64,000 nt of DNA. It comes from Patescibacteria group bacterium (GTDB taxonomy: Bacteria; Patescibacteriota; Doudnabacteria; UBA920). The position numbers and the translations under genes were made by a program. The notes below the pieces were generated by a model. That model was not told where the DNA came from. It did no database searches and worked only from the letters and a program-made list of their open reading frames with translations. This document shows, one piece after another, positions 17,944 to 47,392 of this stretch; within the stretch, counting starts at the first letter, position 1, and every line of letters begins with the position of its first letter. The stretch is from assembly GCA_023484515.1 (NCBI GenBank), contig JAMDAY010000028.1, positions 2,544-66,543 on the forward strand. Direction: 5' to 3'.

Positions 17944-17947
17944 GATT

Positions 17948-20573: not shown

Positions 20574-20574
20574 T

Positions 20575-20919: not shown

Positions 20920-20925
20920 ATTAGA

Positions 20926-20962: not shown

Positions 20963-20965
20963 TTT

Positions 20966-22206: not shown

Positions 22207-22665
22207 GTCCTTGACATCAATGACCAGCTTGGCAATGGCTTTATCCGGGACATTCTTGGGCCTGTTCCTACTGTCCGTGATATCTGTGATCAGTGATCTG
22301 CGCCTTGAACCGAAGACCTTCAGGCCAGCTGGAACAGAGGGTTTATCCGTAATCCGTGTTTATCTGTCTGCCTTGATCCGTGTTAATCTGTTTGCAGTCT
22401 AACACCGGTTTAGCCTTGACAAATGGCTGTTTTTTTGCTAATATATATATAGAAAAAGTATCGGATAGCCAATAGGCAATAGGCAAGCCAAAACTAGCTT
22501 GCTTAAACAAGCCTAAATAGGCTAGAGTGAAACAAAAAACTACAGAATATATGCGGATTAATACGCTGATTTAACGCTGAAAAATTACGGCGCGAATCAG
22601 TGTAAATTGGATATTTATATTCTATAGTAGTTAAAGAAACAAATATCAAATAACAATTTAATCCC

Positions 22666-22908
22666 TTGTCTTCCCAAGAACAGTTGTCAATGCTGACTTC
22701 GGGCAAGCTGATTTCCATCAGCCAGGCCGCGACTTTAACTCCGTATAGTGCGGAGTATTTGAGTTTATTGGCCCGCAAGGGGAGACTGAATGCGATAAAA
22801 ATTTCCCGCGACTGGCTGACTACGGAAGAGGCGGTTAAAAATTACGTGGCCAAGCAGGTCAAGAAGCACGAAAAAATGCTCAAGATGCTGGAAGGAGGAA
22901 AAATATGA
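22666..22908 (+). CDS. excisionase-like helix-turn-helix DNA-binding protein (paralog A)
   Basis: TPYSAEYLSLLARKGRLNAIKISRDWLTTEEAVKNYVAKQVKKHEKML is nearly identical to the 31916-32146 product. HTH_17-like pattern. Its stop overlaps the start of the giant gene (ATGA). Confidence 0.6.
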   Translation: MSSQEQLSMLTSGKLISISQAATLTPYSAEYLSLLARKGRLNAIKISRDWLTTEEAVKNYVAKQVKKHEKMLKMLEGGKI

Positions 22909-25900
22909 AATCCTTCCTGCAAAAAATTGGGAATGCCTTGGGGTTAAGGCAGCAGCCCGTGGTGATTAACGCGAAGTTTATTACTCCCCAAAGCCTGAAA
23001 GAAAATTCCAAACCGGCAGCTCCGGCCTTTGCGGCTGCGCCCCGCGTCCCGGAGTCCCGGATCCCGGACAAAAACAAAACTGCGCCGCTTGCCCGCCAAA
23101 CCGCCAAGAGCGCGCCTATGGCCAAATGGATCGGAAAAATTCCCAGGCCGAAATTCGTTTTGGCCGTGCCCAAGCCGCACCGCGCTTTGGCAGTTGTGCT
23201 GGCCAAAACGTCAGTCGTTCCGTTTAAGCTGCCGCAGTTGCCCGCGCCCCTAAAAAACAAAATGCTGGCTAAATTGCCTAACCGCGTTTTGGCGGGTTTG
23301 GCTGTGCTGCTGTTTGCCTTAAGCATGTCCTTGTGGGGCGCGGCCAAAGAGATACAGATAAAGCATGCGGTTCCCGCAGGGGTCAACTCCGGAATCCTGA
23401 AATCTTTGTCGTTCAGTATCCCTAATAATTTTTCAAACAACGGGCATTCAGGCAGCTCTGTTTCAGCGGCTGGCCAGCGCATTTATCAGCGCCCATTTGG
23501 CAAATACGAAAATTTGCCGGCCAAAGAAAAAGCAGTATTTTATCCAAGCAACGACAACCTTCATTTGCTGTCGTTGTTTACCGGCGGCATTGGCAACTGG
23601 TTCGGATATTTTGGAGGATTGCGGGCAGAGTATGCGCCGTATAAATACGCAGCGCAAAATAATTCAAAAGGCGAAGCGGTTAGCCGCCATGCGGATTTAG
23701 TAAAAGGCAGGGATTCTGAATTTGTTGGCCAGGCGGGCGGGGCCCCTAAGCTGCCAGTTGGGACAATAAATTTTTCAGCCAGGCTGCAAGCGGTTAAAAT
23801 TTCCGCCCGCACGCTGGCTTTGGTTTGGACGGATTTTCTGTTCCGCCATCCGGCCATAAATTTTGCAAGCCTGCAAAGCGCGGCCCAAAATTGGAAGACG
23901 GACATTAGCCGGTCGCTTAAGACAGGCGTTGCCGCTTTTGCCGGCGTGGGCAAATCGGACGCGCAAATTTGGGGGCAAGCTTTAACCTGGCAAATAAGCG
24001 TCCGGAAAAATTTGCCGGAAGCGGCAGACAGCCAACGCGTTGCCAGCCAGGATACAATTGCACGTTATTTTGTAACATTGCAAAACTTTAACTTAAAGGC
24101 GAAGCAGTCTTTTGCTGAAATAAAGACTGCCGCGGTTTCATATTTTAAAGTTAAAGATATTAATTTCCGCAATGACGCGGCAAGCGGCCGCGTCCAAAAG
24201 GGAGAAGTCTTGGGCGCGGTAGACTATCCCGCCGGCCAGGAATCAAAATTTATAAAAATTTTCACCAATGGAGTAGGGGAGTGGTTTAAAATTTTGCCCG
24301 ATGTAAAATATTCGGAGGCTAATCAACAGCAAAAAGCCGGCAAAGGCATGGTGCTGGGCTTGTCGTCCGCCAAGGAGAACAATTCTTCTACCGTGGGCAG
24401 TATTTCCTTAAATCGGCTGGCGCAAAAGAGCTTGCAAGGACTTAATAATGCGGCAGCCTGGGAAACAAGGCAGTTGGTAAAGTTGGCAAATTTTGGAAAA
24501 GTCGCAGCCAAAGGGGTGGGAAAAGTTTGGGGGCAGGTTGCCGGCGCGGGAAAAGGCGCCTGGAACCGCGCGGTGGCAACGGCAGGACATATTTTGCAGA
24601 CCGGCAGCGAAGAAAATGTTTTGCCTTTAATTACGCATGACAAGTTTGGGCAAATGGTGGGGAACAATGGGCCGGCAGGCAATGGCGAAGCCGCGAACTT
24701 AAATTCCCAAACGCCGCAAACCGGTCCAGAGGCCGGGCATTCGGCAGCCGCCATTTCCCAACCGGCAGGCGCGCCCAACGCGGGCAGCGGCAGGCCGGCG
24801 TCTGCAGCCGTTTTAACGGCCGTTGACCCCATGTTTGTTAACCGGCTAATTGACGCGCGGCTTAACCAGTATTTGGCCGAAGGCAAATTTAAAGGCGAAA
24901 AGGGCGAAAAAGGAGACAAGGGAGACAAGGGGGACACCGGCTTAATTACTAACCCCGCAACCAACCAGTCTTCCGCGGTTGTGGGCGGCTATCCCATTGT
25001 CACTTATGTTCCTCCGGTTCCCGCCCAGGGATTTGCCGGCACTTCTTTGGCGGGCTTTGGCAATTTGTCCGCTGCAATTTTGTCAGTCTCTGACCAGACA
25101 AGCTTAAACAATCTTACTGTTACCGGCAATGTCAGTTTGGCTACCACGACCGTTACCAGTTTGACTATTGCCAGGATAAATCCGCAATTCACCGCCGGCT
25201 CTGTTGTTTTTCAAGGATCTTCCGGCCTGGCCCAGGACAACAGCAACTTCTTTTACGATGAAACTAACCATAGATTGGGAATTGGCACCAGCACTCCGTT
25301 AACCGTGTTGGAAATTGACGCTACGGACGCTTTGCGCATTCCGGTGGGCAACACCGCGCAGAGGCCGGCCGTGGCTTTAACCGGCCAAATCCGCTATAAC
25401 CTGACCACGCACCAGTTTGAGGGTTACGGCAACAATAGCGTCTGGCAGGGTTTGGGCGGGGTTATTGATGCCGACCAGGACACTTACATTACGGCGGACA
25501 CGAGCAATGCCGACGAAGATACCTTGCGCCTGTTCACTTTGGGCAACGAGCGCTTGACCGTGACCAGCGCCGGCAATGTTGGCATTGGCACGACCACGCC
25601 GGGCTATGCCTTAACCGTGGTTGGCGACGGTTACTTTACGGGCAATGTTAACATTGGCCAAAACTTGACCGTAAATGACGGGGCGGTAATCATTGGCAGC
25701 GCTACCACGACCAGCCTGACCGTAAATGCGGCCATTGCTTCCAATTTAATTCCCGATGGCAACAATACCAGAAGCTTGGGGAGCGCTTCCTATTTCTGGA
25801 GCGATTTATACGTGGGCGAGTTGCATGCCAACTTGATTTCCGACGCCTCTTCCACTTTAAGCGGCACGCTTTCCGACAGCTTTACCATTAACAGCGACAA

Positions 25901-28900
25901 TGCCAGCGCCGATGCCGAAAACGCGGATTTAATCTTCTTCCGCGGCGCCTCCGGGGCAGACCCTAACGCCTTAATTTCCTGGAATTCTACAGCCAAGCGC
26001 TTTGACTTAAACCAGCCAACTTTTATCCAGAACGCCTCGCCTTCCACCACAACCATTCCAACTTTGCTGCTTCAAGGCTCTGTCAGCCAAACCGCGGATA
26101 TTTTCCTCGCAGCCTCTTCCTCCGGCACTTCCTTGTTTAATATCACTTCCTCCGGCAACGTCGGGATAGGGACGACGGCACCAAGCCAGTTGTTGACGGT
26201 TGGTAATAACAATCAGTTTACGGTTAGTAGTTCTGGTGCAGTTGTGGCCGCTGGGCAGATTCAAGCCAATTCACTTTATACTCTCGGAAATGTGTATGGG
26301 TACGGTTTCCAAAGTGTTAATGGACCCTCGCAATCTTACATTGACATGACAAGTTATAGTAAAGCTATAGCATTTTCAGCCAGTTCCACAGAGGTAATGA
26401 GGTTAACAGGAAACGGCAATATCGGCATCGGCACCACATCGCCAGCGAACAAGCTAACGGTGGTTGATGCGGATACAACCTCCCCGGCGGGGATAGGTTC
26501 GATTAAGCTTACCCAGAATATTTCAAATCCTTACGAATTATTTATGGGTGTCAACAGCACCTATGACAACAACGAAGGAAACGGAGCCGCGTATATACAG
26601 GCGCAGCATTCGGGGGTGAATGTTTCCGGTCTGCTGCTTAACCCGAACGGAGGCCGCGTGGGCATTGGGGTGCTTCATCCTCAATCCGCGTTGGATGTCA
26701 ATGGCGGAATGAGTATTGGTTCTTACGCCGGAACCAACACGGCTCCATCGAATGGATTAATAGTAAGCGGCAATGTGGGCATCGGGACAACAAGTCCGGC
26801 GGCGAAGTTGGATGTCGTTACTTCCAGTAATAATGAAATGAGGTTTTTGGACCAGATGACCTATGGTACTGCAAGCAGCAGCAATGCCACCGGATTGTTT
26901 CTGACCACTCCAACTTATAATAACGGCGGCGGACCGTCTATTGCTTTCGGCCGCGGCACAGGAATCAATGCTACGGAAATGTGGGAGACCGGCATAGACT
27001 ATCGCGGCGGCGGCAATTTGTGGAGCGGCGGCGGAGCGGGCGCATATATTTTAGCCTATCAATGGGAACCCAACGGCCAGTCGGCGGACCGCATCGCCGT
27101 CAAACCTTACGGCCAAACTTCTATTGGTCTGCCGGATGCCGGCTTGAGCCAGTTTACTGCCCAGTTAGAAATTAGAAATCAAATAGCTAGTTTGCCAGTG
27201 GAGATTCTTTACCCCAATTTGACCCAAAGCGGCGATGTCTGGCAGGTACGCACTACGAACAATGGTTCGTCGGCCATTTCTATACCTTCCGGCGCTGTGG
27301 ACGCTTCCAACGCTAACGCTATCGTTCCAATTTTAAGATTAATGCATCCCTCCGCTGCTAGCGGCGTCGGTAATGGCGCAGCCATTGATTTTGTCGCCTC
27401 TTCCGATGGCACGACCATTGGATCAGAAATCGCCGGGACGCGCGCGGCTTCAGGGGGCTGGGGTAACTTGCAGTTTTTGACTCGCAACGGTTCGGGTCTT
27501 TTGGAACGCATGAGGATAGATAATAACGGCAACGTCGGGATTGGGACAACAGGTCCCACATCGGCATTAGAGGTTACGTCTGGCTCTGGAAATGCTTCTG
27601 TAAAATTAAGTTCAAATGCTTATGGCGGAGTAATAAGTACTGCCTCGGGCAGCAATAGCGGATACTTGTATCTAACGCCAGTCGGACGGGTGGTTAGCTT
27701 GTACGATAATACCAACGCTTATAAATTGAATATTTATAACGGCAGTAATGCTGAGTTTTCGTTTGATTCAAACGGCAATAGCTGGTTAAACGCAACCACC
27801 GGCAACGTGGGCATCGGGACGACGAGTCCTGGGGCAAAGTTGCATGTATATGGGACAGATTATACCGGTGCCATTTTTCAAAACACCAATCCTGCCAATT
27901 TTGGGTATAACCAGTTTACTAACGCTGGTGCGGCCACTTCGTATCAATACTGGTTTGGTAATACGTATAGTTCTGCAACGAATAGGTATGTTCCATCATC
28001 ATTCTTGCTCGACGCAGCAGGGACAGGCGGTTTAGGTTTGGCCGCTTCAAATGCTTCTGGGGCTATTCGCTTTTATACTGGTGGGGATAATGAAAGGGTC
28101 AGGATAGATAATAACGGCAACGTCGGGATTGGGACGACGAGCCCAAGCACTAAGTTAGAAGTTTGGGATGGCAATGATGGTTCTGGCGGAGTTATTACTG
28201 CCAAGGACGGCGGAGCTATATTAATGGCCGCTGATAGTAGCTATCCGTTGCAAGTTGGAAATAACACCGGAGGCGCCAATAATATTAGATTCCGTATCGG
28301 ATCGGATGGCACTATTGATTGGAACAACAATAACAGTGCTATTCCCACGATAACTTTGCCGACAAACAAATATCTGGCAGTATCGGGTGGAAATGGAATG
28401 ACAATAGCTGGCAACGTCGGAATTGGGACGATAAATCCGGCGGAATTGCTTGATGTGGCAGGTAACATCCGGCTGACAAACTTTAGGACCCATAATGTTA
28501 CCAGGACTTTAAGTTCTGCTATTAACGGGGTGGTAGATATTGGCACCTTCAACTTCACGTTGGGCGCGGGGGAGTTGGACGTAACCATAGTCACGCAAGG
28601 CACAGGCTACTCTATTGCTAAAACTTACAGAATCCCGGTCAGATATGATGCTACAAGCAATGCTTGGAAAATTGTATTGCCTAATTACGATTCCGGAGTA
28701 TATTCTGGAAATAATTTCCAACTGGAGGTTAAAGTCGGCACTACGAATGCCTCTTTGCGTATTCGCTCGTTGACTGCCAATTCAGCGACCGCTTATATTA
28801 CCATCCAGCAAAATGGCTTGAATAGCGACAGTTTTACCGAATCCACAGCCACTTCCACCGAGGCGGCTATTACCCAGACTTATACTTACACCCCGGTTGC

Positions 28901-30632
28901 ATTTTATAACGGTAATCTGGGAGTGCAAGTTGCCGCGCCAGATGCTGAATTGCAGGTAAATTCAATGCCTGTAAACAAGGGTTCTTATTCATTGTCAAAC
29001 TGGAACAGTACCGGCTCCAGAGCCGCTGCGTTTTTTGCCACGCCGAATAACAACGGGGGCAACAGCTTGGCCAGCGCGGAACCGGCTTTGATCTTGGGCA
29101 GGGAGGGTGTAACAGGCCAATCTTATGCCAATTTTGCGGAATTTAAACTGGCACATTACGAAGTTTCGGGCACAGACGCCCGTACCAGGATGGATATTGC
29201 TTTGACACACGGAGCGGGCGATGCAGCCGGAACTAACGTTATGAGCTTGCTAAGCAACGGCAACGTCGGGATTGGCACTACCTCTCCTTCCCAAAAGCTG
29301 GATGTCTGGGGCAATTTGAACGTCGCTACGTCAACTACGCCTGCATTGTTTGTGAACACAGCCACGGGAATGGTGGGAATTGGAACCGCGACGCCTGGGC
29401 ATCTTATTACACTTTCCGGCGGCGCTTATAGCGACGGCGCGACTTGGGAAAACGCTTCGGACGTAAACTTAAAGGAAAACTTTATTGACCTTGACCCGGC
29501 GGAAATTTTAACCAAGATAAATTCCTTAAAAGTCAGCCAGTGGAATTATAAGACGGACAAGAGCATCTCCTATATTGGCCCGACCGCCCAGGACTTTTAT
29601 TCCACATTTAACGCCTTGCGCCCCAGCAGCTCGCCGACCTCCATTTCCACGGTGGACCCGGCAGGCGTTGCATTGTTGGGAATACAGGCTTTGGACAATA
29701 AATTCAACAATTTACAATTGACGATCAGTAATTTACAGGGAAGCCTGATGAATCAGGCAACTACGACTAATCTTGCTGTTTATAACCCTTCCAACTTCTC
29801 GGGCGACAGCGTGGGCCAGGCCAAAATTTTGTCCGGCGCGACCAGCACTTTGGTTTCCTTCCAAAACGCCTACCAATACCAGCCCATAGTTACCCTAACT
29901 CCGGCCGGCCCTTACACCGCCCGCTACTGGGTGGAAAACGCCAACGCAAACGGCTTTACCGTAGTTTTGGAACACGCGGAAGAATACGACGTTACCTTTA
30001 ACTGGCATTCGTTTGCCAGCCCCGAAGCGAAATTAACGGTCAGCGACGGCACCACGCTGGACATTGTTTTGGTTTTGCCGCCGGCCGACCCGCCGCCTCC
30101 GGCCGCGCCTTTGGTGGTGCAGCCTGCGGCGGGGGACGCTACAGGCGGCTCTGCCGGTAGCAATCTTACAGACACTAATCCTCCTGCCGGAGGCGCAGAT
30201 GGTTCTTCCGGCGACAACCTTTCTCCGGACGACTCTTCTAACAACAGCCTTTCCGGCGACAACCTTCCCGCAGGGGATCTCTCAGGAAATACTTCCGGCA
30301 ATAATCCTCCCGCAGACAGCCTTTCCGGCGGTAATCTTACAGACATTAATCCTCCGGCAGGGGATGGAACAGGGGAAGGCGATCCGTCCGCTGATGGGTC
30401 TGCTTCTTCCGGCCAGCAAGGCCAGGTTTCCGGCGCAACCACAATTTCGGGCGATTCCACTTCGGCAAGCACTGAAACTGCATCCGGCGGCGACAGTTCT
30501 GCCGCCGGCAGCGATTCGTTGTCCGGCAGCGGTTCGGGCCCTACAGATACCTCTGCCGGTGTAGATGCCTCCACCGGCGCCACAGACGCATCCGCCGGCA
30601 CTACGGACGCCTCTTCCGGAAGTACACCGTAA
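22905..30632 (+). CDS. giant cell-surface tail-fibre-like protein: TM anchor, collagen-like GEKGEKGDKGDKGDTG, ~11 NVGIGTT repeats, Peptidase-S74 intramolecular chaperone domain, P/S/G/D-rich tail
   Basis: GGAGG RBS upstream. Repeated GNVGIGTTSP..KL.V units. The C-terminal SDVNLKENFIDLDPAEIL...YIGPTAQDF matches the S74 autoprocessing-domain motifs (SDxxLKxNI, GxxAQ). Confidence 0.85.
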   Translation: MKSFLQKIGNALGLRQQPVVINAKFITPQSLKENSKPAAPAFAAAPRVPESRIPDKNKTAPLARQTAKSAPMAKWIGKIPRPKFVLAVPKPHRALAVVLAKTSVVPFKLPQLPAPLKNKMLAKLPNRVLAGLAVLLFALSMSLWGAAKEIQIKHAVPAGVNSGILKSLSFSIPNNFSNNGHSGSSVSAAGQRIYQRPFGKYENLPAKEKAVFYPSNDNLHLLSLFTGGIGNWFGYFGGLRAEYAPYKYAAQNNSKGEAVSRHADLVKGRDSEFVGQAGGAPKLPVGTINFSARLQAVKISARTLALVWTDFLFRHPAINFASLQSAAQNWKTDISRSLKTGVAAFAGVGKSDAQIWGQALTWQISVRKNLPEAADSQRVASQDTIARYFVTLQNFNLKAKQSFAEIKTAAVSYFKVKDINFRNDAASGRVQKGEVLGAVDYPAGQESKFIKIFTNGVGEWFKILPDVKYSEANQQQKAGKGMVLGLSSAKENNSSTVGSISLNRLAQKSLQGLNNAAAWETRQLVKLANFGKVAAKGVGKVWGQVAGAGKGAWNRAVATAGHILQTGSEENVLPLITHDKFGQMVGNNGPAGNGEAANLNSQTPQTGPEAGHSAAAISQPAGAPNAGSGRPASAAVLTAVDPMFVNRLIDARLNQYLAEGKFKGEKGEKGDKGDKGDTGLITNPATNQSSAVVGGYPIVTYVPPVPAQGFAGTSLAGFGNLSAAILSVSDQTSLNNLTVTGNVSLATTTVTSLTIARINPQFTAGSVVFQGSSGLAQDNSNFFYDETNHRLGIGTSTPLTVLEIDATDALRIPVGNTAQRPAVALTGQIRYNLTTHQFEGYGNNSVWQGLGGVIDADQDTYITADTSNADEDTLRLFTLGNERLTVTSAGNVGIGTTTPGYALTVVGDGYFTGNVNIGQNLTVNDGAVIIGSATTTSLTVNAAIASNLIPDGNNTRSLGSASYFWSDLYVGELHANLISDASSTLSGTLSDSFTINSDNASADAENADLIFFRGASGADPNALISWNSTAKRFDLNQPTFIQNASPSTTTIPTLLLQGSVSQTADIFLAASSSGTSLFNITSSGNVGIGTTAPSQLLTVGNNNQFTVSSSGAVVAAGQIQANSLYTLGNVYGYGFQSVNGPSQSYIDMTSYSKAIAFSASSTEVMRLTGNGNIGIGTTSPANKLTVVDADTTSPAGIGSIKLTQNISNPYELFMGVNSTYDNNEGNGAAYIQAQHSGVNVSGLLLNPNGGRVGIGVLHPQSALDVNGGMSIGSYAGTNTAPSNGLIVSGNVGIGTTSPAAKLDVVTSSNNEMRFLDQMTYGTASSSNATGLFLTTPTYNNGGGPSIAFGRGTGINATEMWETGIDYRGGGNLWSGGGAGAYILAYQWEPNGQSADRIAVKPYGQTSIGLPDAGLSQFTAQLEIRNQIASLPVEILYPNLTQSGDVWQVRTTNNGSSAISIPSGAVDASNANAIVPILRLMHPSAASGVGNGAAIDFVASSDGTTIGSEIAGTRAASGGWGNLQFLTRNGSGLLERMRIDNNGNVGIGTTGPTSALEVTSGSGNASVKLSSNAYGGVISTASGSNSGYLYLTPVGRVVSLYDNTNAYKLNIYNGSNAEFSFDSNGNSWLNATTGNVGIGTTSPGAKLHVYGTDYTGAIFQNTNPANFGYNQFTNAGAATSYQYWFGNTYSSATNRYVPSSFLLDAAGTGGLGLAASNASGAIRFYTGGDNERVRIDNNGNVGIGTTSPSTKLEVWDGNDGSGGVITAKDGGAILMAADSSYPLQVGNNTGGANNIRFRIGSDGTIDWNNNNSAIPTITLPTNKYLAVSGGNGMTIAGNVGIGTINPAELLDVAGNIRLTNFRTHNVTRTLSSAINGVVDIGTFNFTLGAGELDVTIVTQGTGYSIAKTYRIPVRYDATSNAWKIVLPNYDSGVYSGNNFQLEVKVGTTNASLRIRSLTANSATAYITIQQNGLNSDSFTESTATSTEAAITQTYTYTPVAFYNGNLGVQVAAPDAELQVNSMPVNKGSYSLSNWNSTGSRAAAFFATPNNNGGNSLASAEPALILGREGVTGQSYANFAEFKLAHYEVSGTDARTRMDIALTHGAGDAAGTNVMSLLSNGNVGIGTTSPSQKLDVWGNLNVATSTTPALFVNTATGMVGIGTATPGHLITLSGGAYSDGATWENASDVNLKENFIDLDPAEILTKINSLKVSQWNYKTDKSISYIGPTAQDFYSTFNALRPSSSPTSISTVDPAGVALLGIQALDNKFNNLQLTISNLQGSLMNQATTTNLAVYNPSNFSGDSVGQAKILSGATSTLVSFQNAYQYQPIVTLTPAGPYTARYWVENANANGFTVVLEHAEEYDVTFNWHSFASPEAKLTVSDGTTLDIVLVLPPADPPPPAAPLVVQPAAGDATGGSAGSNLTDTNPPAGGADGSSGDNLSPDDSSNNSLSGDNLPAGDLSGNTSGNNPPADSLSGGNLTDINPPAGDGTGEGDPSADGSASSGQQGQVSGATTISGDSTSASTETASGGDSSAAGSDSLSGSGSGPTDTSAGVDASTGATDASAGTTDASSGSTP

Positions 30633-30715
30633 GAAATAGGACATATAAGACAAATAAGACAAATAGGACATATAAGACCTATAGGACTAATAGGACTAAT
30701 AAAACCAATAAATTT
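30633..30715. repeat. 9-bp minisatellite (ATAGGACAA / ATAAGACAA units) upstream of the 208-aa Avd-like gene
   Basis: Tandem units read directly. Translates to SYL/SYM runs on the minus strand. Confidence 0.8.
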
Positions 30716-31342
30716 ATGACAGAATTAATCGCCAAGCACGGCGGCTACAAAAACTTAAAATCTTTCCAGGCGGCGGAAATTGTTTACGACTACACCTTTG
30801 AATTCATTAACCGCTATGTCCAATTTTACAAAGACAAGGAGCAAATGGAAGGCGCGGCGCGCGGCGGCAAGCAGAACATCGGCGAAGGCAGCCAGACCGG
30901 CGGCACCTCCAGGCAAAGCGAAATTAGGCTGACAGATGTCGCCCGCGCCTCGCTGGAAGAACTGAAGCTGGATTACGAAGATTTTTTGCGCAAACAAAGC
31001 CTGCCGCAATGGGGCAAAAACGACCCGCGCGCGCTAGCCGTGCGCAAGCTGGCATACGAAAAGAATAGGACATATGGGACTTATAGGACATATATGTCAG
31101 AGCCAGAAACAGCGGCCAACTGCGCCTTGTGCTTAATTAACCAGGCAACTTATTTACTGGACAAACAACTGGCGGCGTTAGACAAGCAGTTAGGGCGGGA
31201 GGAGGACTTTAAAGAGCGTTACAGGCAAGTCCGCAAGGAACAAATATTCGGAGCAAAAGACGACTATGATGAATTTTTAAAGCAGTTTGGCAAGAAACGG
31301 CTGGAAAACGGGAGGGTGGTGCCGCTGGATGCGCCGGATTGA
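30716..31342 (+). CDS. extended four-helix-bundle (Avd-like) family protein
   Basis: QNIGEGSQ...VARASLEELKLDYEDFL parallels the NIAEGxxR...IAKGSxxEL motifs of TIGR02436. Repeat units also lie inside the ORF at 31060-31095 (RTYGTYRTYM). Confidence 0.45.
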   Translation: MTELIAKHGGYKNLKSFQAAEIVYDYTFEFINRYVQFYKDKEQMEGAARGGKQNIGEGSQTGGTSRQSEIRLTDVARASLEELKLDYEDFLRKQSLPQWGKNDPRALAVRKLAYEKNRTYGTYRTYMSEPETAANCALCLINQATYLLDKQLAALDKQLGREEDFKERYRQVRKEQIFGAKDDYDEFLKQFGKKRLENGRVVPLDAPD

Positions 31343-31560
31343 ACAAGGTGAATAGGACAAATAGGACGCATAGGACAGATAGGGCAGAGGGGCAAGGCCT
31401 ATGCGACCAGTAAGACGAATAGGACGTATAAGAACAATAAGACAAATAGGACATATAGGACATATAAGACAAATAGGACAAATAGGACAAATAGGACATA
31501 TAAGTCCTATAAGACCTATAAGTCCTATAAAGACCTATAACCTATAAAACCAAAACAGCC
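31343..31560. repeat. 9-bp minisatellite array, forward units then inverted units (self-palindromic)
   Basis: ataggacaa... followed by gtcctataagacctataagtcctat. Confidence 0.8.
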
Positions 31561-31915
31561 AAGCCTAAAACCACTCCCCTGCCTTAAATAAGAGCTAAAA
31601 AGTATCGGATAAACAATATTTAATCGTTTAAACTAACATAGTTAGATTGACCAATATATATTTGGATAAACAATATAAGATTGGATAAACTATACAAGAT
31701 AGTTTAAATGATATATAATTGTTTTATCAATATAAGATCGTCAAAACAAACTAATATAGTTTAAAAAACCTTATATTGGTTAAACAGCTAAATATCGTTT
31801 AAAAAATAATAAATCGTTTAAACAATCAAAGTAGCTCTAGACGATACTAATTGCAAATAATCCCCAATAATTTTCCACAAATAAACAAACAGCAGTCACA
31901 AAATAAAGAAACAAA

Positions 31916-32146
31916 ATGGCCTCCCCTAACTTACAATTAATTTCCGGCGCGCTTATCTCCATGCATCAGGCAGCAAAAATGACCCCGTATTCGGCGGAGT
32001 ATTTAAGCTTGCTCGCGCGCAAGGGGAGGCTAAAGGCGGTAAAAATCGGCAGGGACTGGCTGACCAATGAAGAGGCAATTAAGGAATACGTGCAAAAGCA
32101 GGTCAAAAAGCACGAAAAAATGCTGGCGGCATTGGGAAAACTATAA
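31916..32146 (+). CDS. excisionase-like helix-turn-helix DNA-binding protein (paralog B)
   Basis: TPYSAEYLSLLARKGRLKAVKIGRDWLTNEEAIKEYVQKQVKKHEKML. Paralog of 22666-22908. Confidence 0.6.
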   Translation: MASPNLQLISGALISMHQAAKMTPYSAEYLSLLARKGRLKAVKIGRDWLTNEEAIKEYVQKQVKKHEKMLAALGKL

Positions 32147-32149
32147 AAA

Positions 32150-32197
32150 ACGGATTTACACGGATACCGTCAAACGGATGCTCACGGATCACGGATA
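32150..32197. repeat. array of 5 ACGGAT hexamers (left flank of the GxxExxY cassette)
   Basis: cggatttacacggataccgtcaaacggatgctcacggatcacggata. Confidence 0.75.
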
Positions 32198-32217
32198 AAA
32201 TACATATGTAAAAATAT

Positions 32218-32654
32218 ATGGACAGTAAAGAAAAAGGGAAATTATTAGAAGAAGGATTGTGTTCAAATATTATTCGGGCGTTTTATGATGTTGCAAATAA
32301 ATATGGCAGCGGTTTAAAGGAAATTGTTTACCAAAAAGCCTTGGTTGAAATTTTGGAAAAAATGGGGCTAAAAACTGAACAGCAAAAAAGATAAGCATTT
32401 ATTCCCTTGATTCAGGGAAAACACTGGGAACATATGTGCCGGATTTAATAGTAGAAGGCAAGGTTGTTGTAGAAATTAAGGCTACCGATTATACAATTGG
32501 CCGCAATATTAATCAACAAAGGTCTTATTTAAAAGCCAGTAAGTATGAAATTGGATACCTGGTAAACTTTGGAACCCCTAGATTATTTTTTAAGAGATCA
32601 ATTTATACCAACGACCGCAAACCGTTTATTATATTATTAACCAATCATCCGTGA
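32218..32654 (+). pseudogene. GxxExxY-family protein gene split by a frameshift in an A6 run (32384-32389)
   Basis: The N-terminal ORF 32218-32394 contains GLKEIVY. The C-terminal ORF has DLIVEGKVVVEIKA...YLVNFG. Adding one A restores a single ~145-aa ORF. Confidence 0.55.
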
Positions 32655-32693
32655 TCCGTGGAAATCCGTAAGCAGTATCCGTGTTTATCCGTT
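32646..32693. repeat. array of 5 ATCCGT hexamers (right flank, inverted relative to 32150-32197)
   Basis: catccgtgatccgtggaaatccgtaagcagtatccgtgtttatccgttt. Confidence 0.75.
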
Positions 32694-33935
32694 TAAATAT
32701 GTCATTTATCGCCAGAAACAAATTCCTAAACAAATATTTGCCCTTAATTCTTTCCGCCATATTGCTTGTTACCGCGTATGGGGCTTATTTTGTCGCACAA
32801 AAATCCAAAACCGCAGAGTCTGCCTGGTTTACTTCTTCTTCCACTGCCGGTACCTGGAACTACCGGCAAAGAATTGTCATTGACCACACCAAGGTCGGGT
32901 AATCGTTAAAACAAAATTTAACCGATTTTCCGGTTTTGGTTTCCACGACCAATGTGCTGTTTAAGTCCGTAAACAACGGGGGACATGTGGGGTTAGACAG
33001 CGGCTACGACATTGTCTTTACCTCCGCGGACGGCGCCACCAAACTAGCGCACGAAATAGAAAAATACGACCCCGCAACCGGCCAGCTAATTGCCTGGGTT
33101 AAAACCAATTTATCTTCGTCTTCCGACACCGTCTTGTATCTTTACTACGGCAACTCTTCCGCCCCCGACATGCAAACCGTAGATCCGGTTAAGACTGCGG
33201 TCTGGGACAGCAACTATAAAGGCGTCTGGCATCTTGGAGAAACCGGCAGGGGCATCAGGCGATTATAAAGACAGCACAACAAATAATAGTAATAGCATCA
33301 GTACTGCTAGCCAGCCTTCCGCGGCTGCCGGCAAAATAGGTAACGCGCAAAATTTTAACAATTCCTACATCCAATTTGACGGTTCAGGCTCCTTAAATAT
33401 TTATTCCAGCCCCATAACCATTGAGGCCTGGATTAAGCCGACAACGCTTGACGCCACGCTTAGGGCGGTAGTTGATAAAGGGAGTGCTACTTATTTAATG
33501 GGGGTCTCCAGTTATCCAAGCACGGGCCATGCCAATACTTTCAGTATTAGCGGAAGCGGGGGGAGTGGTAATTATGTCGCACCTCAAAATTCTATAAGTA
33601 CGGGGGTATGGTATCATTTAGTTGTACAAGGTATAAATAATCCAAAATGGTATGCCAACGGAGCGTATTTAGGGTACTACGATACCCTTATGACCTTGAT
33701 TTCTAATACCGATGTTCTTTCCATTGGCGATAACTCCTTGCATACCCGCAAGTTTAGCGGATTAATTGAGGAAGTCCGCATTTCCAACATAGCCCGCACC
33801 CCCGAATGGATTAAAACCGAATACAACAACCAGTCCGCGCCCTCTGCTTTTTACGCGATTTCCGCGTCCAACGCTTCCTCCCGCCCCGCTGACAAGCCCC
33901 TCATCAAAACCCGCTCCGGCGTGAAGTTCCGCTAA
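32681..33935 (+). pseudogene. DUF2341 + LamG/concanavalin-like surface protein gene, disrupted by an in-frame TAA (32903) and a frameshift (~33240)
   Basis: Signal/TM present. WNYRQRIVIDHTKVG*...FPVLVSTT...DIVFTSADG...YYGN...VWHL matches DUF2341. The third ORF has GKIGNAQNFNNSYIQFDGS...EAWIKP (LamG). Confidence 0.55.
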
Positions 33936-33948: not shown

Positions 33949-33985
33949 CAATGGGCACCATTGTGCTGCACAATGGTGCCCATTG
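33949..33985. repeat. REP hairpin caatgggcaccattgtg-ctg-cacaatggtgcccattg, immediately upstream of RAYT-1
   Basis: 17-bp perfect arms. Confidence 0.8.
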
Positions 33986-33998
33986 TAACCAGCTTAAT

Positions 33999-34652
33999 AT
34001 GAATAACCGGGATTATAAATTTTTTGCGCCCAATACAATCCATCATGTATACAACCGCGGAAATGGTAAAATGGATATTTTTAGGGACGGACAGGATTTT
34101 GCAAATCTGATTAAAAGAATAGCTTTAACTTTAGGCAAGGCGAAAGAGACCGCAACGGTGCCCATTGGCTGCCAATGGGCACCGTTGCGTATTGCGCCTT
34201 TTCCAAAGAACGCTTTTACCATACTGTGTTATTGCCTTATGCCTAACCATTTTCACTTCCTTATCAGGCAGAATACTGAAATTGCGATAAGTGATTTTAT
34301 TTCAAAACTTTGCAGTAGCTATGGTAAATTTTTTAATAAAAAATACGAACACGCTGGCGGCTTGTTCCAAGATCAGTTTAAAGCTGTGCGCGTTGAAAAT
34401 GATTCCCAGTTACTGTGGGCATCCGCCTACATCCACAACAACCCCAAAACCGCCGGACTTGTCCAAAAGTTGGAAGATTATGCCTGGAGCAGTTATTTGG
34501 ATTATATCGGCAAGCGGCAGGGAACTTTGTGCGACAAGGAATTTATTTTAAAGATGATCGGCGGCGCGGAAAAGTATAAAAGATTTACGGAAGGCGGCTT
34601 TGAAAAAATCAAGGGGAGAAAAGAATTGGAACATTTGCTGCTGGATAATTAA
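33999..34652 (+). CDS. REP-associated tyrosine transposase (RAYT, IS200/Y1 HuH family), copy 1
   Basis: HHVYNRGN and YCLMPNHFHFLI (HuH) motifs. The start was chosen at MNNRDYK by alignment to copy 2. An internal REP hairpin at 34151-34189 is translated as TATVPIGCQWAPLRIAP. Confidence 0.8.
   Translation: MNNRDYKFFAPNTIHHVYNRGNGKMDIFRDGQDFANLIKRIALTLGKAKETATVPIGCQWAPLRIAPFPKNAFTILCYCLMPNHFHFLIRQNTEIAISDFISKLCSSYGKFFNKKYEHAGGLFQDQFKAVRVENDSQLLWASAYIHNNPKTAGLVQKLEDYAWSSYLDYIGKRQGTLCDKEFILKMIGGAEKYKRFTEGGFEKIKGRKELEHLLLDN
34151..34189. repeat. REP hairpin cgcaacggtgcccattgg-ctg-ccaatgggcaccgttgcg, inside the RAYT-1 ORF
   Basis: 18-bp perfect arms. Shares the ggtgcccattg core with the upstream hairpin. 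Confidence 0.8.
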
Positions 34653-35431: not shown

Positions 35432-35610
35432 ACGATTTTAGGGTTTTTCTAAAATTAAAAACCTGTAAATTATTCTAATTTTTAATTGACCTAATTATTT
35501 TAAACAATATCCAATTCCTAATTCCCAATATCCAACTACTGCAGTTCATTGGGAATTGGATATTGGGTATTGGAAATTATTTAGGGTACTTAGGAATTAG
35601 GTTAATTTTG

Positions 35611-36606
35611 TCACTCTTCCCCATACTCTTTCCCCGTCAGTTCCAAATACACGTCTTCCAAGGTGGCGGTTTTCACCATGAAGCCGTAAAAGGCGATACC
35701 TTCCTTTTTTAGCAAATTTACAATGGCGGAAATTTTGTCCAAACTGGAAATCTCCAAAATGACCTTAGGATAACTGGCGTGGATTTTTTTAACTTCCGGC
35801 AGGGCAGTGAATAATTCGGGAGTAATTCGCCCCTCCGTGAAAAAGGAAACCTGGGTCGTTTCGGAAAGCCGGTCAATAAGTTTTTTGGGCTGGTCAATTT
35901 CCAAAATTTTTCCCTGGTCCATAATGGCCACATGGTGGCAAAGGAATTCCGCCTCTTCCATGTAATGGGTAGTCAGGACAATGGTAATGCCTTCGGCATT
36001 GATTTTTTTAATAAGCCCCCAAAGGCTCCGGCGTGCGGCCGGGTCCAAACCAGTGGTTGGTTCGTCTAAAAACAAAATTTCCGGCCGGTTAACCAGGGAA
36101 ACGGCAATGGCAAAGCGCTGTTTTTGTCCGCCGGAAAGGCTGGCGAATTCTTCACTGGCCTTGTCTTCCAGGTTCACCACCTGTAACGGGCTTGTGCTAT
36201 TTGTCCCTGCGCCTTTGGGCTGCTTATAAAAAGAGGAAAACAAATCCAACAACTCTTTTAGCGACAAGTGGTGCAAATACTGGCTGGATTGCAATTGCAC
36301 GCCTATGCGCTTTTTAACTTCTTCTGCGTCTGCAATGTTATCCAGTCCCAATATAGCTACTTTCCCGCTGGTTTGCCGCTTTAAGCCTTCAATAATTTCC
36401 AGGGTGGTGGTCTTTCCTGCGCCATTGGGACCGAGCAATCCGAAAATTTCCCCTTTTTCCACGGAAAAAGAAATGCCGTTAACCGCGGTTAAAAATTTGT
36501 TCCCTTGCCGGCCCAGCTTTTTGGCAAGGGGATAAGTTTTTGTTAAATTTTGGATCTCAATTACTTTTTCCATATTTTCCTGCTTTATTATATCACATTG
36601 TGTCAA
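35611..36606 (-). CDS. ABC transporter ATP-binding protein
   Basis: GLLGPNGAGKTTT Walker A, LSGGQKQRFAIAVSL signature and LFLDEPTTGLD Walker B are present. Confidence 0.85.
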   Translation of the reverse strand: MTQCDIIKQENMEKVIEIQNLTKTYPLAKKLGRQGNKFLTAVNGISFSVEKGEIFGLLGPNGAGKTTTLEIIEGLKRQTSGKVAILGLDNIADAEEVKKRIGVQLQSSQYLHHLSLKELLDLFSSFYKQPKGAGTNSTSPLQVVNLEDKASEEFASLSGGQKQRFAIAVSLVNRPEILFLDEPTTGLDPAARRSLWGLIKKINAEGITIVLTTHYMEEAEFLCHHVAIMDQGKILEIDQPKKLIDRLSETTQVSFFTEGRITPELFTALPEVKKIHASYPKVILEISSLDKISAIVNLLKKEGIAFYGFMVKTATLEDVYLELTGKEYGEE

Positions 36607-47390: not shown

Positions 47391-47392
47391 AT

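What the first reader, a model, noticed from the sequence alone, without database searches (positions are those of the whole stretch)
30633..31560. Second Avd-like gene embedded in a 9-bp minisatellite that also runs through its coding sequence
The 208-aa protein (QNIGEGSQ...VARASLEEL motifs) is bracketed by tandem ATAGGACAA/ATAAGACAA units. The downstream array switches to the inverted unit (GTCCTATAA), so the whole locus can fold back. The same unit occurs inside the ORF at 31060-31095, encoding RTYGTYRTYM. It sits immediately after the giant tail-fibre-like gene. Target gene followed by avd is the DGR layout, but template repeat and RT are absent.
Basis: partly seen in the sequence, partly recalled or inferred. 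Interest (0 to 1): 0.6.

Follow-up and report, generated by a model that had tools for sequence, protein, structure and literature searches.

The report
Four-helix-bundle gene embedded in nonamer repeats
A small, already-catalogued gene of unknown function (a relative of the proteins found in ribosomal-RNA intervening sequences) sits after a giant surface-protein gene wrapped in arrays of a 9-base palindromic repeat; it is not a diversity-generating retroelement, but the gene–repeat pairing holds across many bacterial phyla and looks like a small selfish module.

Summary
A 208-aa ORF (30716-31342) is bracketed by 9-bp arrays (30634-30711; 31352-31388; 31411-31551) and carries an in-frame copy (31065-31094).

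The DGR reading fails. The window has no reverse transcriptase and no template repeat. The arrays are identical in every independent assembly examined.

The protein is an ordinary member of NCBIfam TIGR04258 ("four helix bundle suffix"). Its fold is that of IVS-encoded S23p proteins (2gsc, 2rld).

New here: the nonamer (consensus ATAGGWCCT, built on the palindrome CCTATAGG) is a hallmark of the family.
- It borders the gene in 42 of 73 species-level homologue loci from many phyla, about 150-fold enriched.
- It lies in-frame in the helix 3-4 loop in 57 of 73 loci, under nucleotide-level constraint (Tyr TAT 92% against 51% elsewhere; Arg AGG 85% against 10%).
- The same arrays also occur as dispersed solo hairpins. 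Only 6 of 120 array loci carry the gene.

Homologues sit inside type I-C cas operons (cas7-[gene]-cas4), inside type I R-M operons and, in Patescibacteria, between giant genes.

Best reading (inferred): a selfish gene-plus-repeat module, akin to S23p/IVS and to RAYT/REP. Function is untested.

The parts
22905..30632 (+). Giant (2575 aa) surface/tail-fibre-like gene. It is the upstream neighbour (context), and the cassette begins 2 nt after its stop codon.
   Evidence: ORF. Peptidase_S74 domain at aa 2185-2235. Orthologous giant genes precede the homologous cassette in L083-L099.
30634..30711 (+). Upstream nonamer array: 8.7 units of ATAGGACAT/ATAAGACAA, all in forward orientation, ending 4 nt before the ATG. 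It has no Shine-Dalgarno sequence and no promoter-like site.
   Evidence: Largely unstructured as RNA (-6.2 kcal/mol, z = -2.1). No promoter-like match.
30716..31342 (+). 208-aa gene of the TIGR04258 'four helix bundle suffix' family (IVS-protein/S23p-like four-helix bundle).
   Evidence: TIGR04258 43.1 bits, above the cut-off of 40. Identical protein annotated in NCBI. AF2 model pLDDT 87. Foldseek top hits are 2gsc (TM 0.70 normalised by target length) and 2rld.
31065..31094 (+). In-frame nonamer array (AAT AGG ACA TAT GGG ACT TAT AGG ACA TAT = NRTYGTYRTY). It lies in a ~35-aa insertion between bundle helices 3 and 4.
   Evidence: Family-wide codon-level constraint at these positions.
31352..31388 (+). 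Downstream array, part 1 (4 forward units ATAGGACAA-like).
31411..31498 (+). Downstream array, part 2 (about 10 forward units). Its last units form the 5' arm of the hairpin.
   Evidence: (I14).
31499..31551 (+). Inverted units (ATAAGTCCTAT...) forming the 3' arm of a local hairpin. The hairpin core is 31473-31528 and the outer pairs reach 31446-31545.
   Evidence: Arms 31473-31500 / 31501-31528. MFE -31.8 kcal/mol, z = -7.07, 0 of 200 shuffles as stable. The same hairpin appears in the fold of the whole cassette.

Best explanation
**SHOWN**
- The locus is an ordinary member of the large TIGR04258 'four helix bundle suffix' family. The protein is an S23p/IVS-protein-like four-helix bundle. Helix 4 lies in the 'suffix' region, and a ~35-aa loop carries an in-frame copy of a 9-bp repeat.
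- It is not a DGR.
- The nonamer (consensus ATAGGWCCT; tandem copies make the palindrome CCTATAGG with a 1-nt spacer; here degenerated to ATARGACAW) is the family's signature. It abuts the gene's start and stop codons in most homologues across many phyla. Inside the ORF it is held at the nucleotide level.
- The unit type follows the gene clade rather than the host phylum. The same arrays occur as dispersed solo hairpins in genomes that carry the gene.
- The gene has no promoter-like site of its own. It rides inside foreign transcription units: after a giant gene here, between cas7 and cas4 of type I-C systems, and inside type I R-M operons.

**INFERRED**
- Gene and repeat form a self-contained selfish module. 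It is comparable with the S23p ORF and the repeat-built stem of a 23S rRNA intervening sequence, and with a RAYT gene and its REP sequences.
- The basic, probably ring-forming, bundle protein recognises the palindromic nonamers, either as duplex DNA or as hairpins. This would keep all copies, including the one in its own ORF, homogeneous, and would leave or seed solo arrays.
- In the transcript the arrays act as hairpin boundaries (here a -31.8 kcal/mol 3' hairpin). These would delimit or stabilise the inserted message without harming the host operon.
For: **Identity**
- Family and fold.

**Repeats as a family property**
- 53 of 80 loci have period-9 arrays.
- Paired units occur at 5.1 per kb within 150 nt of the gene, against 0.033 per kb elsewhere. 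Flank arrays are present in 42 of 73 loci and internal arrays in 57 of 73.
- The top flank 7-mers are ATAAGTC, ATAGGAC, GTCCTAT and GACCTAT. They are found in 11-14 of 70 upstream flanks and in 0-3 of 131 control segments.

**Nucleotide-level constraint inside the ORF**
- Tyr codons: TAT 163 of 178 in the motif, against 224 of 438 elsewhere in the same genes.
- Arg118: AGG 47 of 55, against 130 of 1263 elsewhere.
- Asn117: AAT 35 of 35.

**Unit type follows the gene clade**
- The clade L053/L060/L061/L062/L071/L075/L077 comes from Geobacter, Armatimonadota, Acidobacteria and Patescibacteria. It uses GATCGGWCC (palindrome CCGATCGG) both in the flanks and inside the ORF.

**Arrays are kept over long divergence**
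- Syntenic Patescibacteria loci with 62-64% identical proteins keep arrays at both gene borders.

**Dispersed solo arrays**
- More than 120 metagenome loci carry ATAGGWCC x3. A family gene was found in only 6 of them, in every case within 1 kb of the array.
- Prevotella nigrescens has a different unit (CTAGGAAYN) next to its TIGR04258 gene. Three more solo hairpin arrays of that same unit lie in the 300 kb read.

**Precedent and parallels**
- The Coxiella 23S IVS has tandem heptamers before the S23p ORF, inside the RNase III stem (PMC4990558).
- Two other array-bounded small-gene cassettes in this window fold with closing stems.

**Other**
- Family median pI is 9.4.
- No promoter-like site lies in or before the cassette.
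Against: - No binding, processing or mobility was tested. The protein has no recognised DNA- or RNA-binding or catalytic motif.
- In the 64-kb window the nonamer occurs only at this locus, so this genome shows no dispersal.
- Conserved synteny in Patescibacteria, and tight translational packing inside I-C cas operons, fit a domesticated or functional operon member as well as a selfish one.
- Long-range pairing of the two flanks is only marginally better than controls across the family (-42.9 against -40.0 kcal/mol; p = 0.009 against shuffles, 0.086 against other loci). The window's own fold does not predict it. The IVS-type excision stem is therefore not demonstrated for this subfamily.
- Linked inheritance alone explains why the unit type follows the gene clade.
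- Flank arrays are absent in about 40% of loci. Upstream arrays are mostly absent in the cas operons.
Confidence: 0.45

Rival explanations
1. Degenerate or split DGR. The giant gene is the variable target, the 208-aa protein is its Avd, and the RT and template repeat lie elsewhere in the genome or have been lost.
For: - The protein shares the Avd/S23p superfamily fold.
- It lies directly 3' of a large surface-protein gene.
- DGRs are common in Patescibacteria (own knowledge).
Against: - No RT domain in any ORF of at least 100 aa in 64 kb.
- No DGR-RT motif in 2,624 ORFs of the window and 80 homologue loci.
- No repeat of the giant gene's 3' end.
- The recurrent neighbours of homologues are cas I-C, hsdM/S/R and DUF2341/LamG genes, never an RT.
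- The model's best structural matches are 2gsc and 2rld, not bAvd.
Confidence: 0.03
2. The arrays are generic extragenic repeats of the host genomes (REP- or STRR-like hairpins or terminators) with no functional tie to the gene. The gene merely sits in, or preferentially inserts into, array-prone spacers. The internal RTY motif is conserved for protein reasons only.
For: - 114 of 120 perfect ATAGGWCC x3 arrays have no family gene nearby. They lie next to unrelated genes, and some are in-frame in NRPS A-domain loops.
- This window holds many other short intergenic arrays.
- Y-x-T-Y persists at the protein level in homologues that have lost the DNA unit (L069, L079, L080).
Against: - About 150-fold enrichment at the gene borders.
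- Synonymous-codon constraint inside the ORF cannot be a protein-level effect.
- The same unit is seen with the gene across unrelated phyla, and the variant unit follows the gene clade.
- All 6 family genes found in 605 kb of array-seeded DNA lie within 1 kb of the array.
Confidence: 0.2
3. Pure RNA-level IVS-type element. The flanking arrays pair in the transcript into a stem that RNase III cuts, excising the ORF-bearing RNA from the host operon. The protein is irrelevant or decaying, as proposed for Coxiella.
For: - The Coxiella IVS has tandem heptamers within its RNase III stem.
- Cassettes A (20514-20967) and C (32143-32710) in this window fold with 45-50-bp closing stems made of their arrays (z = -3.8 and -4.3).
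- An ORF-less copy of the C-type element exists at 17946-18117.
- The 4HB gene lacks a Shine-Dalgarno sequence here and in L085 and L093.
Against: - For this cassette the minimum-free-energy and centroid folds pair the downstream array with itself, not with the upstream array.
- Family-wide flank-to-flank duplex energy barely exceeds controls.
- The units are mostly in direct orientation on both sides here.
- RNase III needs no particular sequence, yet the unit is conserved across phyla.
- The ORF is intact and conserved in thousands of homologues.
Confidence: 0.15
4. A domesticated accessory or regulatory subunit of the neighbouring systems (type I-C CRISPR-Cas, type I R-M, giant surface-protein clusters). 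The repeats are incidental.
For: - In 16 of 80 loci the gene sits within a type I-C cas operon directly upstream of cas4, following cas7 (or cas3 in three loci). Spacers are often 0-52 nt, and start and stop codons overlap or are array-encoded.
- About 8 loci lie in hsdM/S/R operons.
- Synteny with giant genes is conserved in at least 3 Patescibacteria lineages plus 6 genome loci.
Against: - The three contexts share no known biochemistry.
- I-C-linked copies fall into several clades interleaved with non-I-C copies, and R-M-linked copies are scattered over the tree.
- No PADLOC model matches.
- Many loci have unrelated neighbours such as secA and housekeeping genes.
Confidence: 0.14
5. Contingency (phase-variation) locus. 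Changes in repeat number switch expression of the gene or of its neighbours.
For: Tandem short repeats lie at a gene's 5' end and inside its ORF. The Coxiella IVS heptamers vary in number between strains.
Against: - A unit of 9 bp keeps the reading frame.
- The arrays are identical in 2 assemblies of this genome.
- They are also identical in 10 and in 6 independent metagenome assemblies of two related lineages whose neighbouring genes differ.
Confidence: 0.03

Closest known systems
23S rRNA intervening sequences carrying an S23p (PF05635/TIGR02436) ORF (Leptospira, Coxiella burnetii)
   Same: - A small four-helix-bundle ORF of the same superfamily, with no promoter of its own, is embedded in a host transcript.
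- Short tandem repeats lie directly before the ORF (Coxiella: GACAGAT x2-3), and complementary termini are present (PMC4990558).
- Poor or absent Shine-Dalgarno sequence.
- Selfish-element interpretation.
   Different: - Not in rRNA.
- The flanks are mostly direct arrays with a local 3' hairpin rather than a closing stem.
- The repeat is 9 bp and palindromic, is conserved across phyla, is also present in-frame in the ORF, and is dispersed as solo arrays.
- The protein carries a 35-aa loop insertion and a C-terminal extension (TIGR04258 subfamily).
Avd of diversity-generating retroelements (bAvd)
   Same: Same four-helix-bundle superfamily, basic protein, position 3' of a large surface-protein gene.
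   Different: No RT, no TR/VR pair, and no association with an RT in any of 80 homologue loci. The sequence models for the general family are below cut-off. The model's best structural matches are 2gsc and 2rld.
REP sequences and their RAYT (Y1 transposase) genes
   Same: A single gene is flanked by copies of a palindromic repeat that is also dispersed through the genome as solo hairpins. The repeat type is specific to the gene lineage (the comparison rests on own knowledge of Nunvar 2010 and Bertels & Rainey 2011).
   Different: - The gene is a helical bundle with no known catalytic motif, not a Y1 transposase.
- The repeat is a tandem array of 9-bp units.
- Density is low (about 1 per 40-100 kb).
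- A copy sits in-frame inside the gene.
- No dispersal is seen in this window.
STRR (short tandemly repeated repetitive) heptamer arrays of cyanobacteria, and Rickettsia palindromic elements (RPE)
   Same: - STRR: intergenic tandem arrays of 7-bp units of unknown function.
- RPE: palindromic selfish repeats tolerated in-frame inside protein-coding genes. Here such in-frame copies occur in the 4HB loop and in NRPS A-domain loops.
- Both comparisons come from own knowledge.
   Different: Different unit length and sequence. Neither is known to be tied to a specific gene family.

Membership tests
NCBIfam TIGR04258 (four helix bundle suffix domain-containing protein) | HMM score at or above the curated cut-off (40 bits) | tested here: met
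   43.1 bits, E = 3e-11, aa 130-175 matching profile positions 1-46 of 49. The identical protein carries this name in NCBI.
TIGR02436 / Pfam PF05635 (four helix bundle protein; 23S rRNA-intervening sequence protein) | HMM score at or above the curated cut-off (24 and 33.8 bits) | tested here: not met
   18.1 and 18.6 bits. Only helices 1-3 (aa 15-84) align. Many close homologues do carry a precomputed PF05635 hit.
IVS-encoded protein-like four-helix bundle (structural superfamily of 2gsc, 2rld, bAvd) | Up-down four-helix bundle superposable on solved members | tested here: met
   AF2 model pLDDT 87. Foldseek top hits are 2gsc (probability 1.00; TM 0.70 normalised by target length) and 2rld (0.62). 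The alignment spans helices 1-3 plus helix 130-162. The profile hits 2gsc at E = 0.02.
Diversity-generating retroelement | Reverse transcriptase gene adjacent to avd | tested here: not met
   No RVT domain in any ORF of at least 100 aa in the window. No DGR-RT motif in the window or in 80 homologue loci.
Diversity-generating retroelement | Template repeat / variable repeat pair with adenine-specific differences at the 3' end of the target gene | tested here: not met
   A self-comparison of the window finds no repeat of the 3' end of 22905-30632 outside the gene.
23S rRNA intervening sequence (IVS) element | Insertion in helix 25 or 45 of a 23S rRNA gene | tested here: not met
   Rfam finds only two tRNAs in the window and no rRNA. 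The cassette lies between protein-coding genes.
23S rRNA intervening sequence (IVS) element | Complementary termini forming a closing stem around the ORF (RNase III substrate) | tested here: inconclusive
   Complementary arms exist (39 nt at 74%, 31 nt at 84%). However, the minimum-free-energy and centroid folds use a local 3' hairpin instead. The family-wide flank-to-flank duplex is only marginally better than controls. The feature is met for cassettes A and C of the same window.
23S rRNA intervening sequence (IVS) element | Excision from the host transcript by RNase III | not testable with these tools
REP/RAYT-type gene-repeat pair | The gene is flanked by the repeat, and the same repeat is dispersed in the same genome | tested here: inconclusive
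   Flanked: yes. Dispersed: not in this 64-kb window. Dispersal was seen in Prevotella nigrescens (3 solo arrays in 300 kb) and, at the level of metagenomes. Whole-genome co-occurrence could not be computed.
REP/RAYT-type gene-repeat pair | The gene encodes a Y1 (HUH) transposase | tested here: not met
   The gene is a four-helix bundle. The two Y1_Tnp genes of the window (33951-34652, 46710-47390) are separate and are not adjacent to nonamer arrays.

The most novel reading that the evidence does not exclude
The TIGR04258 protein, and by extension the S23p/IVS four-helix-bundle proteins and the GxxExxY nucleases that share the same array-bounded architecture, would be the trans-acting partner of its own short palindromic tandem repeat. 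It would recognise the nonamer arrays and be responsible for maintaining, homogenising and dispersing them. That would make a RAYT/REP-like system built on a non-HUH protein. It would explain how ORF-carrying intervening sequences spread into rRNA genes, cas operons and R-M operons.
Probability: 0.15. Interest if true: 0.8.

Novelty: new variant of a known kind. Interest (0 to 1): 0.45.

Why it matters
- S23p/IVS-type four-helix-bundle proteins have had no assigned function since the rRNA intervening sequences were described in the early 1990s. Avd is the only relative with a known role.
- A lineage-specific palindromic repeat that travels with the gene, is held at synonymous sites inside its ORF, and is scattered as solo hairpins gives a concrete, testable ligand for the protein. 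It also gives a handle on how these cassettes move.
- The recurrent placement between cas7 and cas4 of type I-C systems and inside type I R-M operons matters for annotating defence loci. It also bears on whether such passengers affect those systems.
- For this particular window the practical message is negative: there is no DGR and no hypervariable locus.

Tried and rejected
1. **DGR.** Searched all ORFs for RT domains and motifs and looked for a TR. Nothing found.
2. **Whole-locus fold-back.** The 936-nt fold pairs the downstream array locally.
3. **Variable minisatellite.** The arrays are identical in all independent assemblies.
4. **Arrays as promoters.** No sigma-70-like match lies in the arrays.
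5. **The 'suffix' as an extra domain gained by read-through of a former downstream array.** The model rejects this for the helix 3-4 motif, because helix 130-162 is helix 4 of the bundle. Read-through remains possible for the C-terminal tail: short forms end at about aa 176, and P0088 has IGPIGPIG at that junction.
6. **Arrays exclusive to the gene.** Rejected by the metagenome scan, where 114 of 120 arrays have no gene nearby.
7. **Flank units re-seeded from the internal copy.** L071 and L077 keep flank arrays although the internal copy has decayed.
8. **Known defence protein.** No PADLOC hit.
9. **Phage or plasmid origin.** No phage hits and one large secondary replicon. Only 5 viral contigs carry the array.
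10. **Literature.** Searches for TIGR02436, 'four helix bundle suffix', PF05635, GxxExxY and IVS+CRISPR found no description of the gene-repeat link. Absence from this library is not proof of novelty.
11. **Compensatory change CCTATAGG to CCGATCGG as evidence for a palindrome.** Suggestive only. Counts were 27 and 7, against 8 half-changed forms, some of which are forced by coding.
Full report
**1. The observation**

The sequence is as described. ORF 30716-31342 (+) encodes 208 aa with KQNIGEGSQ and VARASLEEL.

Tandem Repeats Finder reports these period-9 arrays:
- 30634-30711, 8.7 copies
- 31065-31094, 3.3 copies
- 31352-31388, 4.1 copies
- 31411-31540, 14.3 copies
- period-18 rows at 31491-31551, where the unit turns into its inverse (ATAAGTCCTAT)

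ATARGACAW occurs 15 times in the window against 1.47 expected (0 of 100 shuffles reach 15). Fourteen of the 15 lie at this locus.

The internal copy reads AAT AGG ACA TAT GGG ACT TAT AGG ACA TAT, which is NRTYGTYRTY. The upstream array starts 2 nt after the stop codon of the 2575-aa ORF 22905-30632, which carries a Peptidase_S74 domain. The 'first' Avd-like gene of the window is 20575-20919 (PF05635, 108.6 bits).

**2. What the protein is**

- NCBIfam TIGR04258 ('four helix bundle suffix domain') scores 43.1 bits against a cut-off of 40.
- The general models TIGR02436 and PF05635 align only to aa 15-84 and stay below their cut-offs.
- The identical protein is already in NCBI under that name, from a Patescibacteria MAG. 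The protein search returned 5,741 hits among the 8,000 candidates it scored.

An AlphaFold model (pLDDT 87) has helices at 15-34, 38-61, 66-93 and 130-162. A ~35-aa insertion between the third and fourth helix contains the RTY motif (short helix 120-127). The C-terminal tail has two short helices and a beta-hairpin.

Foldseek's best PDB matches are Xcc0516 (2gsc; TM 0.70 normalised by target length) and BT_0352 (2rld, 'S23 ribosomal protein family'). A family profile finds 2gsc at E = 0.02.

So the protein is an S23p/IVS-protein-like four-helix bundle, of the same superfamily as Avd. The so-called suffix contains helix 4. I first thought the suffix was gained by reading through a downstream array. 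The model rejects that for the helix 3-4 motif.

**3. Not a DGR, not a variable locus**

- The window is ordinary Patescibacteria chromosome. It carries polA, uvrB, ruvA, a Mur ligase, rpoB, rpoC, a class I aminoacyl-tRNA synthetase and tsaD.
- No ORF of at least 100 aa has an RT domain.
- A crude DGR-RT motif search over 2,624 ORFs of the window and 80 homologue loci found nothing.
- No repeat of the giant gene's 3' end exists.
- Two independent assemblies from other sequencing runs are 100% identical to the window over the locus, arrays included.
- For two related lineages, the arrays are identical in 10 and in 6 independent metagenome assemblies, although the neighbouring giant genes differ.

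**4. The repeat is a property of the family**

*Distribution.* GTDB species genomes gave 591 confirmed relatives among the first 600 pattern matches. The best 80 come from Patescibacteria, Acidobacteriota, Desulfobacterota, Nitrospirota, Planctomycetota, Verrucomicrobiota, Chloroflexota and others.
- 53 of 80 loci have period-9 arrays in or beside the gene.
- Two unit cores spaced by exactly 9 bp occur at 5.1 per kb within 150 nt of the gene, against 0.033 per kb in the rest of the loci.
- 42 of 73 loci have flank arrays and 57 of 73 have the internal one.
- The most over-represented flank 7-mers are ATAAGTC, ATAGGAC, GTCCTAT and GACCTAT.
- The consensus ATAGGWCCT makes tandem CCTATAGG palindromes separated by one base. 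This explains why 'forward' and 'inverted' units differ only at the central base, and why both orientations occur on either side.

*Patescibacteria.* In Patescibacteria loci whose proteins are 62-64% identical to the window's, the layout is the same: giant gene, array, gene, array, then a DUF2341/LamG giant gene. The stop codons of both genes fall inside or next to the first unit.

*Constraint inside the ORF.* The in-frame copy is held at the nucleotide level.

| Position | Codon use in the motif | Same genes, elsewhere |
|---|---|---|
| Tyr (three motif tyrosines) | TAT 163 of 178 | TAT 224 of 438 |
| Arg118 | AGG 47 of 55 | AGG 130 of 1263 |
| Asn117 | AAT 35 of 35 | AAT 226 of 484 |

*Insertions and variant unit.*
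- Some homologues carry extra array-encoded insertions. These lie in the same loop, in the helix 1-2 loop, at the N-terminus and near the C-terminus.
- One clade uses GATCGGWCC (palindrome CCGATCGG) both in the flanks and in the ORF. Its members come from Geobacter, Armatimonadota, Acidobacteriota and Patescibacteria.
- Other Acidobacteriota and Desulfobacterota copies use ATAGGWCC. The unit type therefore follows the gene clade, not the host.

**5. The repeat is not exclusive to the gene**

A family gene was found in only 6 of them, in every case within 1 kb of the array.
- The others are solo arrays in spacers next to unrelated genes, often forming perfect hairpins. A few are in-frame insertions, for example YRSYRSYRTY in the same loop of NRPS adenylation domains (L113, L104).
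- Secondary arrays occur about once per 40-90 kb.
- In the one complete replicon available, Prevotella nigrescens (33% identical protein, annotated as TIGR04258), the gene is followed by palindromic arrays of a different 9-bp unit (CTAGGAAYN).
- Three further solo arrays of that same unit lie in intergenic spacers of the 300 kb I read. Together with the array next to the gene, these four arrays hold 24 of the 30 CTAGG/CCTAG pentamers.
- In the 64-kb window itself the nonamer is confined to this locus.

**6. Where the gene lives**

Clustering neighbours of the 80 loci shows the following.
- In 16 loci the gene sits within a type I-C cas operon directly upstream of cas4. It follows cas7, or in three loci cas3. 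The Cas5c, Cas8c, Cas7/Csd2, Cas4, Cas1c and Cas2 annotations were confirmed with NCBIfam.
- In these operons spacers are often 0-52 nt, and short downstream arrays sometimes supply the cas4 start codon.
- About 8 loci lie beside hsdM, hsdS or hsdR.
- Six Patescibacteria genome loci, the window and L083-L099 lie beside DUF2341/LamG giant genes.
- On a neighbour-joining tree the I-C copies form several clades interleaved with other contexts. The R-M copies are scattered.
- No PADLOC model matches. There are no phage hits and one plasmid-collection hit.

**7. Structure of this cassette and of its neighbours**

- The whole cassette does not fold back. The downstream array forms a local hairpin (core 31473-31528; -31.8 kcal/mol, z = -7.1). 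The upstream array is nearly unstructured.
- Across the family, flank-to-flank duplexes are only marginally more stable than controls. Local structure is modestly in excess.
- No promoter-like site and no Shine-Dalgarno sequence precede the gene.

Two other small-gene cassettes in the window have the classical IVS design, with an array of short units upstream and the same units inverted downstream:
- A canonical PF05635 gene, 20514-20967, with unit ATCAAGTT. It fills the whole Mur-ligase/tsaB spacer.
- A broken GxxExxY/PDDEXK_3 gene, 32143-32710, with unit ACGGAT.

Both fold with closing stems of about 45-50 bp. An ORF-less copy of the ACGGAT-bounded element lies at 17946-18117.

The published Coxiella IVS has the same ingredients: tandem GACAGAT heptamers before the S23p ORF, inside the RNase III stem, with copy number varying between strains (PMC4990558).

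**8. Interpretation**

*Shown.* The locus is an ordinary member of a known, functionally uncharacterised family. The DGR and variable-minisatellite readings fail. The gene-nonamer association is family-wide and is constrained at the nucleotide level. The arrays also exist as dispersed solo hairpins. The gene rides inside foreign operons.

*Inferred.* Gene and repeat form a selfish module related in logic to S23p/IVS elements and to RAYT/REP pairs.
- The basic protein (family median pI 9.4) would be the factor that recognises the palindromic nonamers.
- The arrays would serve as hairpin boundaries of the inserted message.

I put 0.45 on this composite. The identity part is near-certain and the recognition part is untested.

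*Main rivals.*
- The arrays are generic host repeats with no tie to the gene (0.2).
- A purely RNA-level IVS-type excision element (0.15).
- A domesticated accessory of the host operons (0.14).
- DGR remnant and phase variation (0.03 each).

**9. Novelty and score**

The gene is already annotated. Short repeats around S23p ORFs have a precedent in Coxiella. I found no description of three things in the searchable literature:
- the cross-phylum nonamer signature with synonymous-site constraint inside the ORF
- its dispersed solo copies
- the recurrent cas7-cas4 placement

That library is incomplete, so absence is not proof of novelty. I rate it a new variant of a known kind, interest 0.45. For this window the finding is largely a clarification. 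For the family it offers a testable handle on a protein class that has lacked a function for three decades.

Noticed in passing
window 20514-20967: A canonical four-helix-bundle gene (20575-20919; PF05635, 108.6 bits) fills the whole spacer between a Mur ligase gene and a TsaB-like gene. It is bounded by ATCAAGTT(T) x4 upstream (read into the ligase's C-terminal tail) and AAACTTGAT x4 downstream. The RNA fold closes the two arrays into a long stem (z = -3.8), the design of a 23S rRNA IVS outside rRNA.
   Followed up: partly
window 32143-32710: A GxxExxY/PDDEXK_3 gene is broken into two ORFs (32218-32394, 32436-32654). It is bounded by ACGGAT x5 upstream and ATCCGT x5 downstream. The RNA fold gives a closing stem (z = -4.3). 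A GxxExxY homologue in L059 (2509-2883) is likewise bounded by GCGAAA / TTTCGC arrays, just after a tRNA gene.
   Followed up: partly
window 17946-18117; 21408-21520; 22343-22385: An ORF-less element in the ruvA/femAB spacer has TACGGA arrays and their inverse enclosing a 22-bp perfect hairpin (-73.3 kcal/mol, z = -6.3). A related 23-bp perfect hairpin lies at 21408-21520 (z = -8.6), and a further ATCCGT x4 array at 22343-22385. The ACGGAT unit is thus dispersed in this genome with and without an ORF (MITE-like).
   Followed up: partly
L013, L019, L021-L024, L028-L031, L038, L042, L044, L046, L063, L073 (gene at about 4001-4550 of each): In 16 of 80 species genomes the TIGR04258 gene sits within a type I-C CRISPR-Cas operon directly upstream of cas4. 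It follows cas7, or in three loci cas3. It is often translationally coupled. In several loci the short downstream array (TAGGTCTTATATGACC...) supplies the stop codon of the gene and the ATG and first codons of cas4.
   Followed up: partly
L007, L010, L039, L057, L066, L068, L069, L076: Homologues lie next to hsdM-like methyltransferase, hsdS and hsdR genes (type I R-M operons). RhuM-like genes recur nearby (L010, L021, L023, L029). The window itself has a RhuM-Fic gene at 3639-4652.
   Followed up: no
L113 (array at 2727-2755), L104, L132: ATAGGWCC arrays are inserted in-frame in the same loop of NRPS adenylation domains (…TAEKF-YRSYRSYRTY-INYKTGDLARW…), inside a 4354-aa ORF in L113. The repeat is therefore tolerated in coding sequence, as Rickettsia palindromic elements are.
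   Followed up: partly
L226-L231 (Prevotella nigrescens NZ_CP082843.1, record positions 36084-36112, 201851-201897, 227745-227762, 260404-260432): Four palindromic arrays of a CTAGGAAYN 9-bp unit hold 24 of the 30 CTAGG/CCTAG pentamers in 300 kb. One abuts the replicon's TIGR04258 gene. The other three are solo intergenic hairpins (down to -44 kcal/mol), two of them followed by AAAACCACC(A/C)CCC.
   Followed up: partly
window 33951-34652 and 46710-47390: Two IS200-like Y1 transposase genes are 76% identical over 411 nt. The second is flanked by perfect 25-nt inverted repeats (46681-46705 / 47392-47416), as RAYT genes are by REPs.
   Followed up: no
window 22698-22880 and 31942-32124: Two paralogous HTH_17 genes (75% identical DNA) each precede a large surface-protein gene: the 2575-aa gene, and the DUF2341/LamG gene. 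The spacer before the second (31560-31900) is AT-rich. It holds 19-bp repeats (TTGGATAAACAATAyAAGA, 31652-31700) and all the promoter-like matches of the region.
   Followed up: no
window 32681-33935: The DUF2341/Laminin_G_3 gene downstream is split into three ORFs (32681-32902, 32936-33268, 33234-33935). Its counterparts in L083-L099 are intact genes of 700 to more than 1800 aa. Together with the broken GxxExxY gene and a Y1 transposase, this suggests that 31.9-34.7 kb is a decaying region.
   Followed up: no
window 35548-35578 and 40751-40781; also 2110-2138, 18386-18414, 18478-18507, 19899-19933, 50887-50917 / 51220-51250: Many short (mostly 7-bp) tandem arrays are present. ATTGGAA arrays occur both between two ABC-transporter genes and in the rpoB-rpoC spacer. 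A 31-nt direct repeat (97% identical) lies inside the tsaD ORF.
   Followed up: no
alignment A1 (P0046, P0064, P0088, P0075, P0076, P0092, P0006, P0045): Homologues carry array-encoded low-complexity insertions at several loop positions. Examples are DRMNRTNETDRTDKTNRTY in the helix 1-2 loop, TDRTDRTNRTD in the helix 3-4 loop, IGPIGPIG before the C-terminal tail, and MTYMTYMTY N-terminal extensions. Short forms of the protein end at about aa 176, exactly where P0088 has IGPIGPIG. The C-terminal tail may therefore have been gained by reading through an array.
   Followed up: partly
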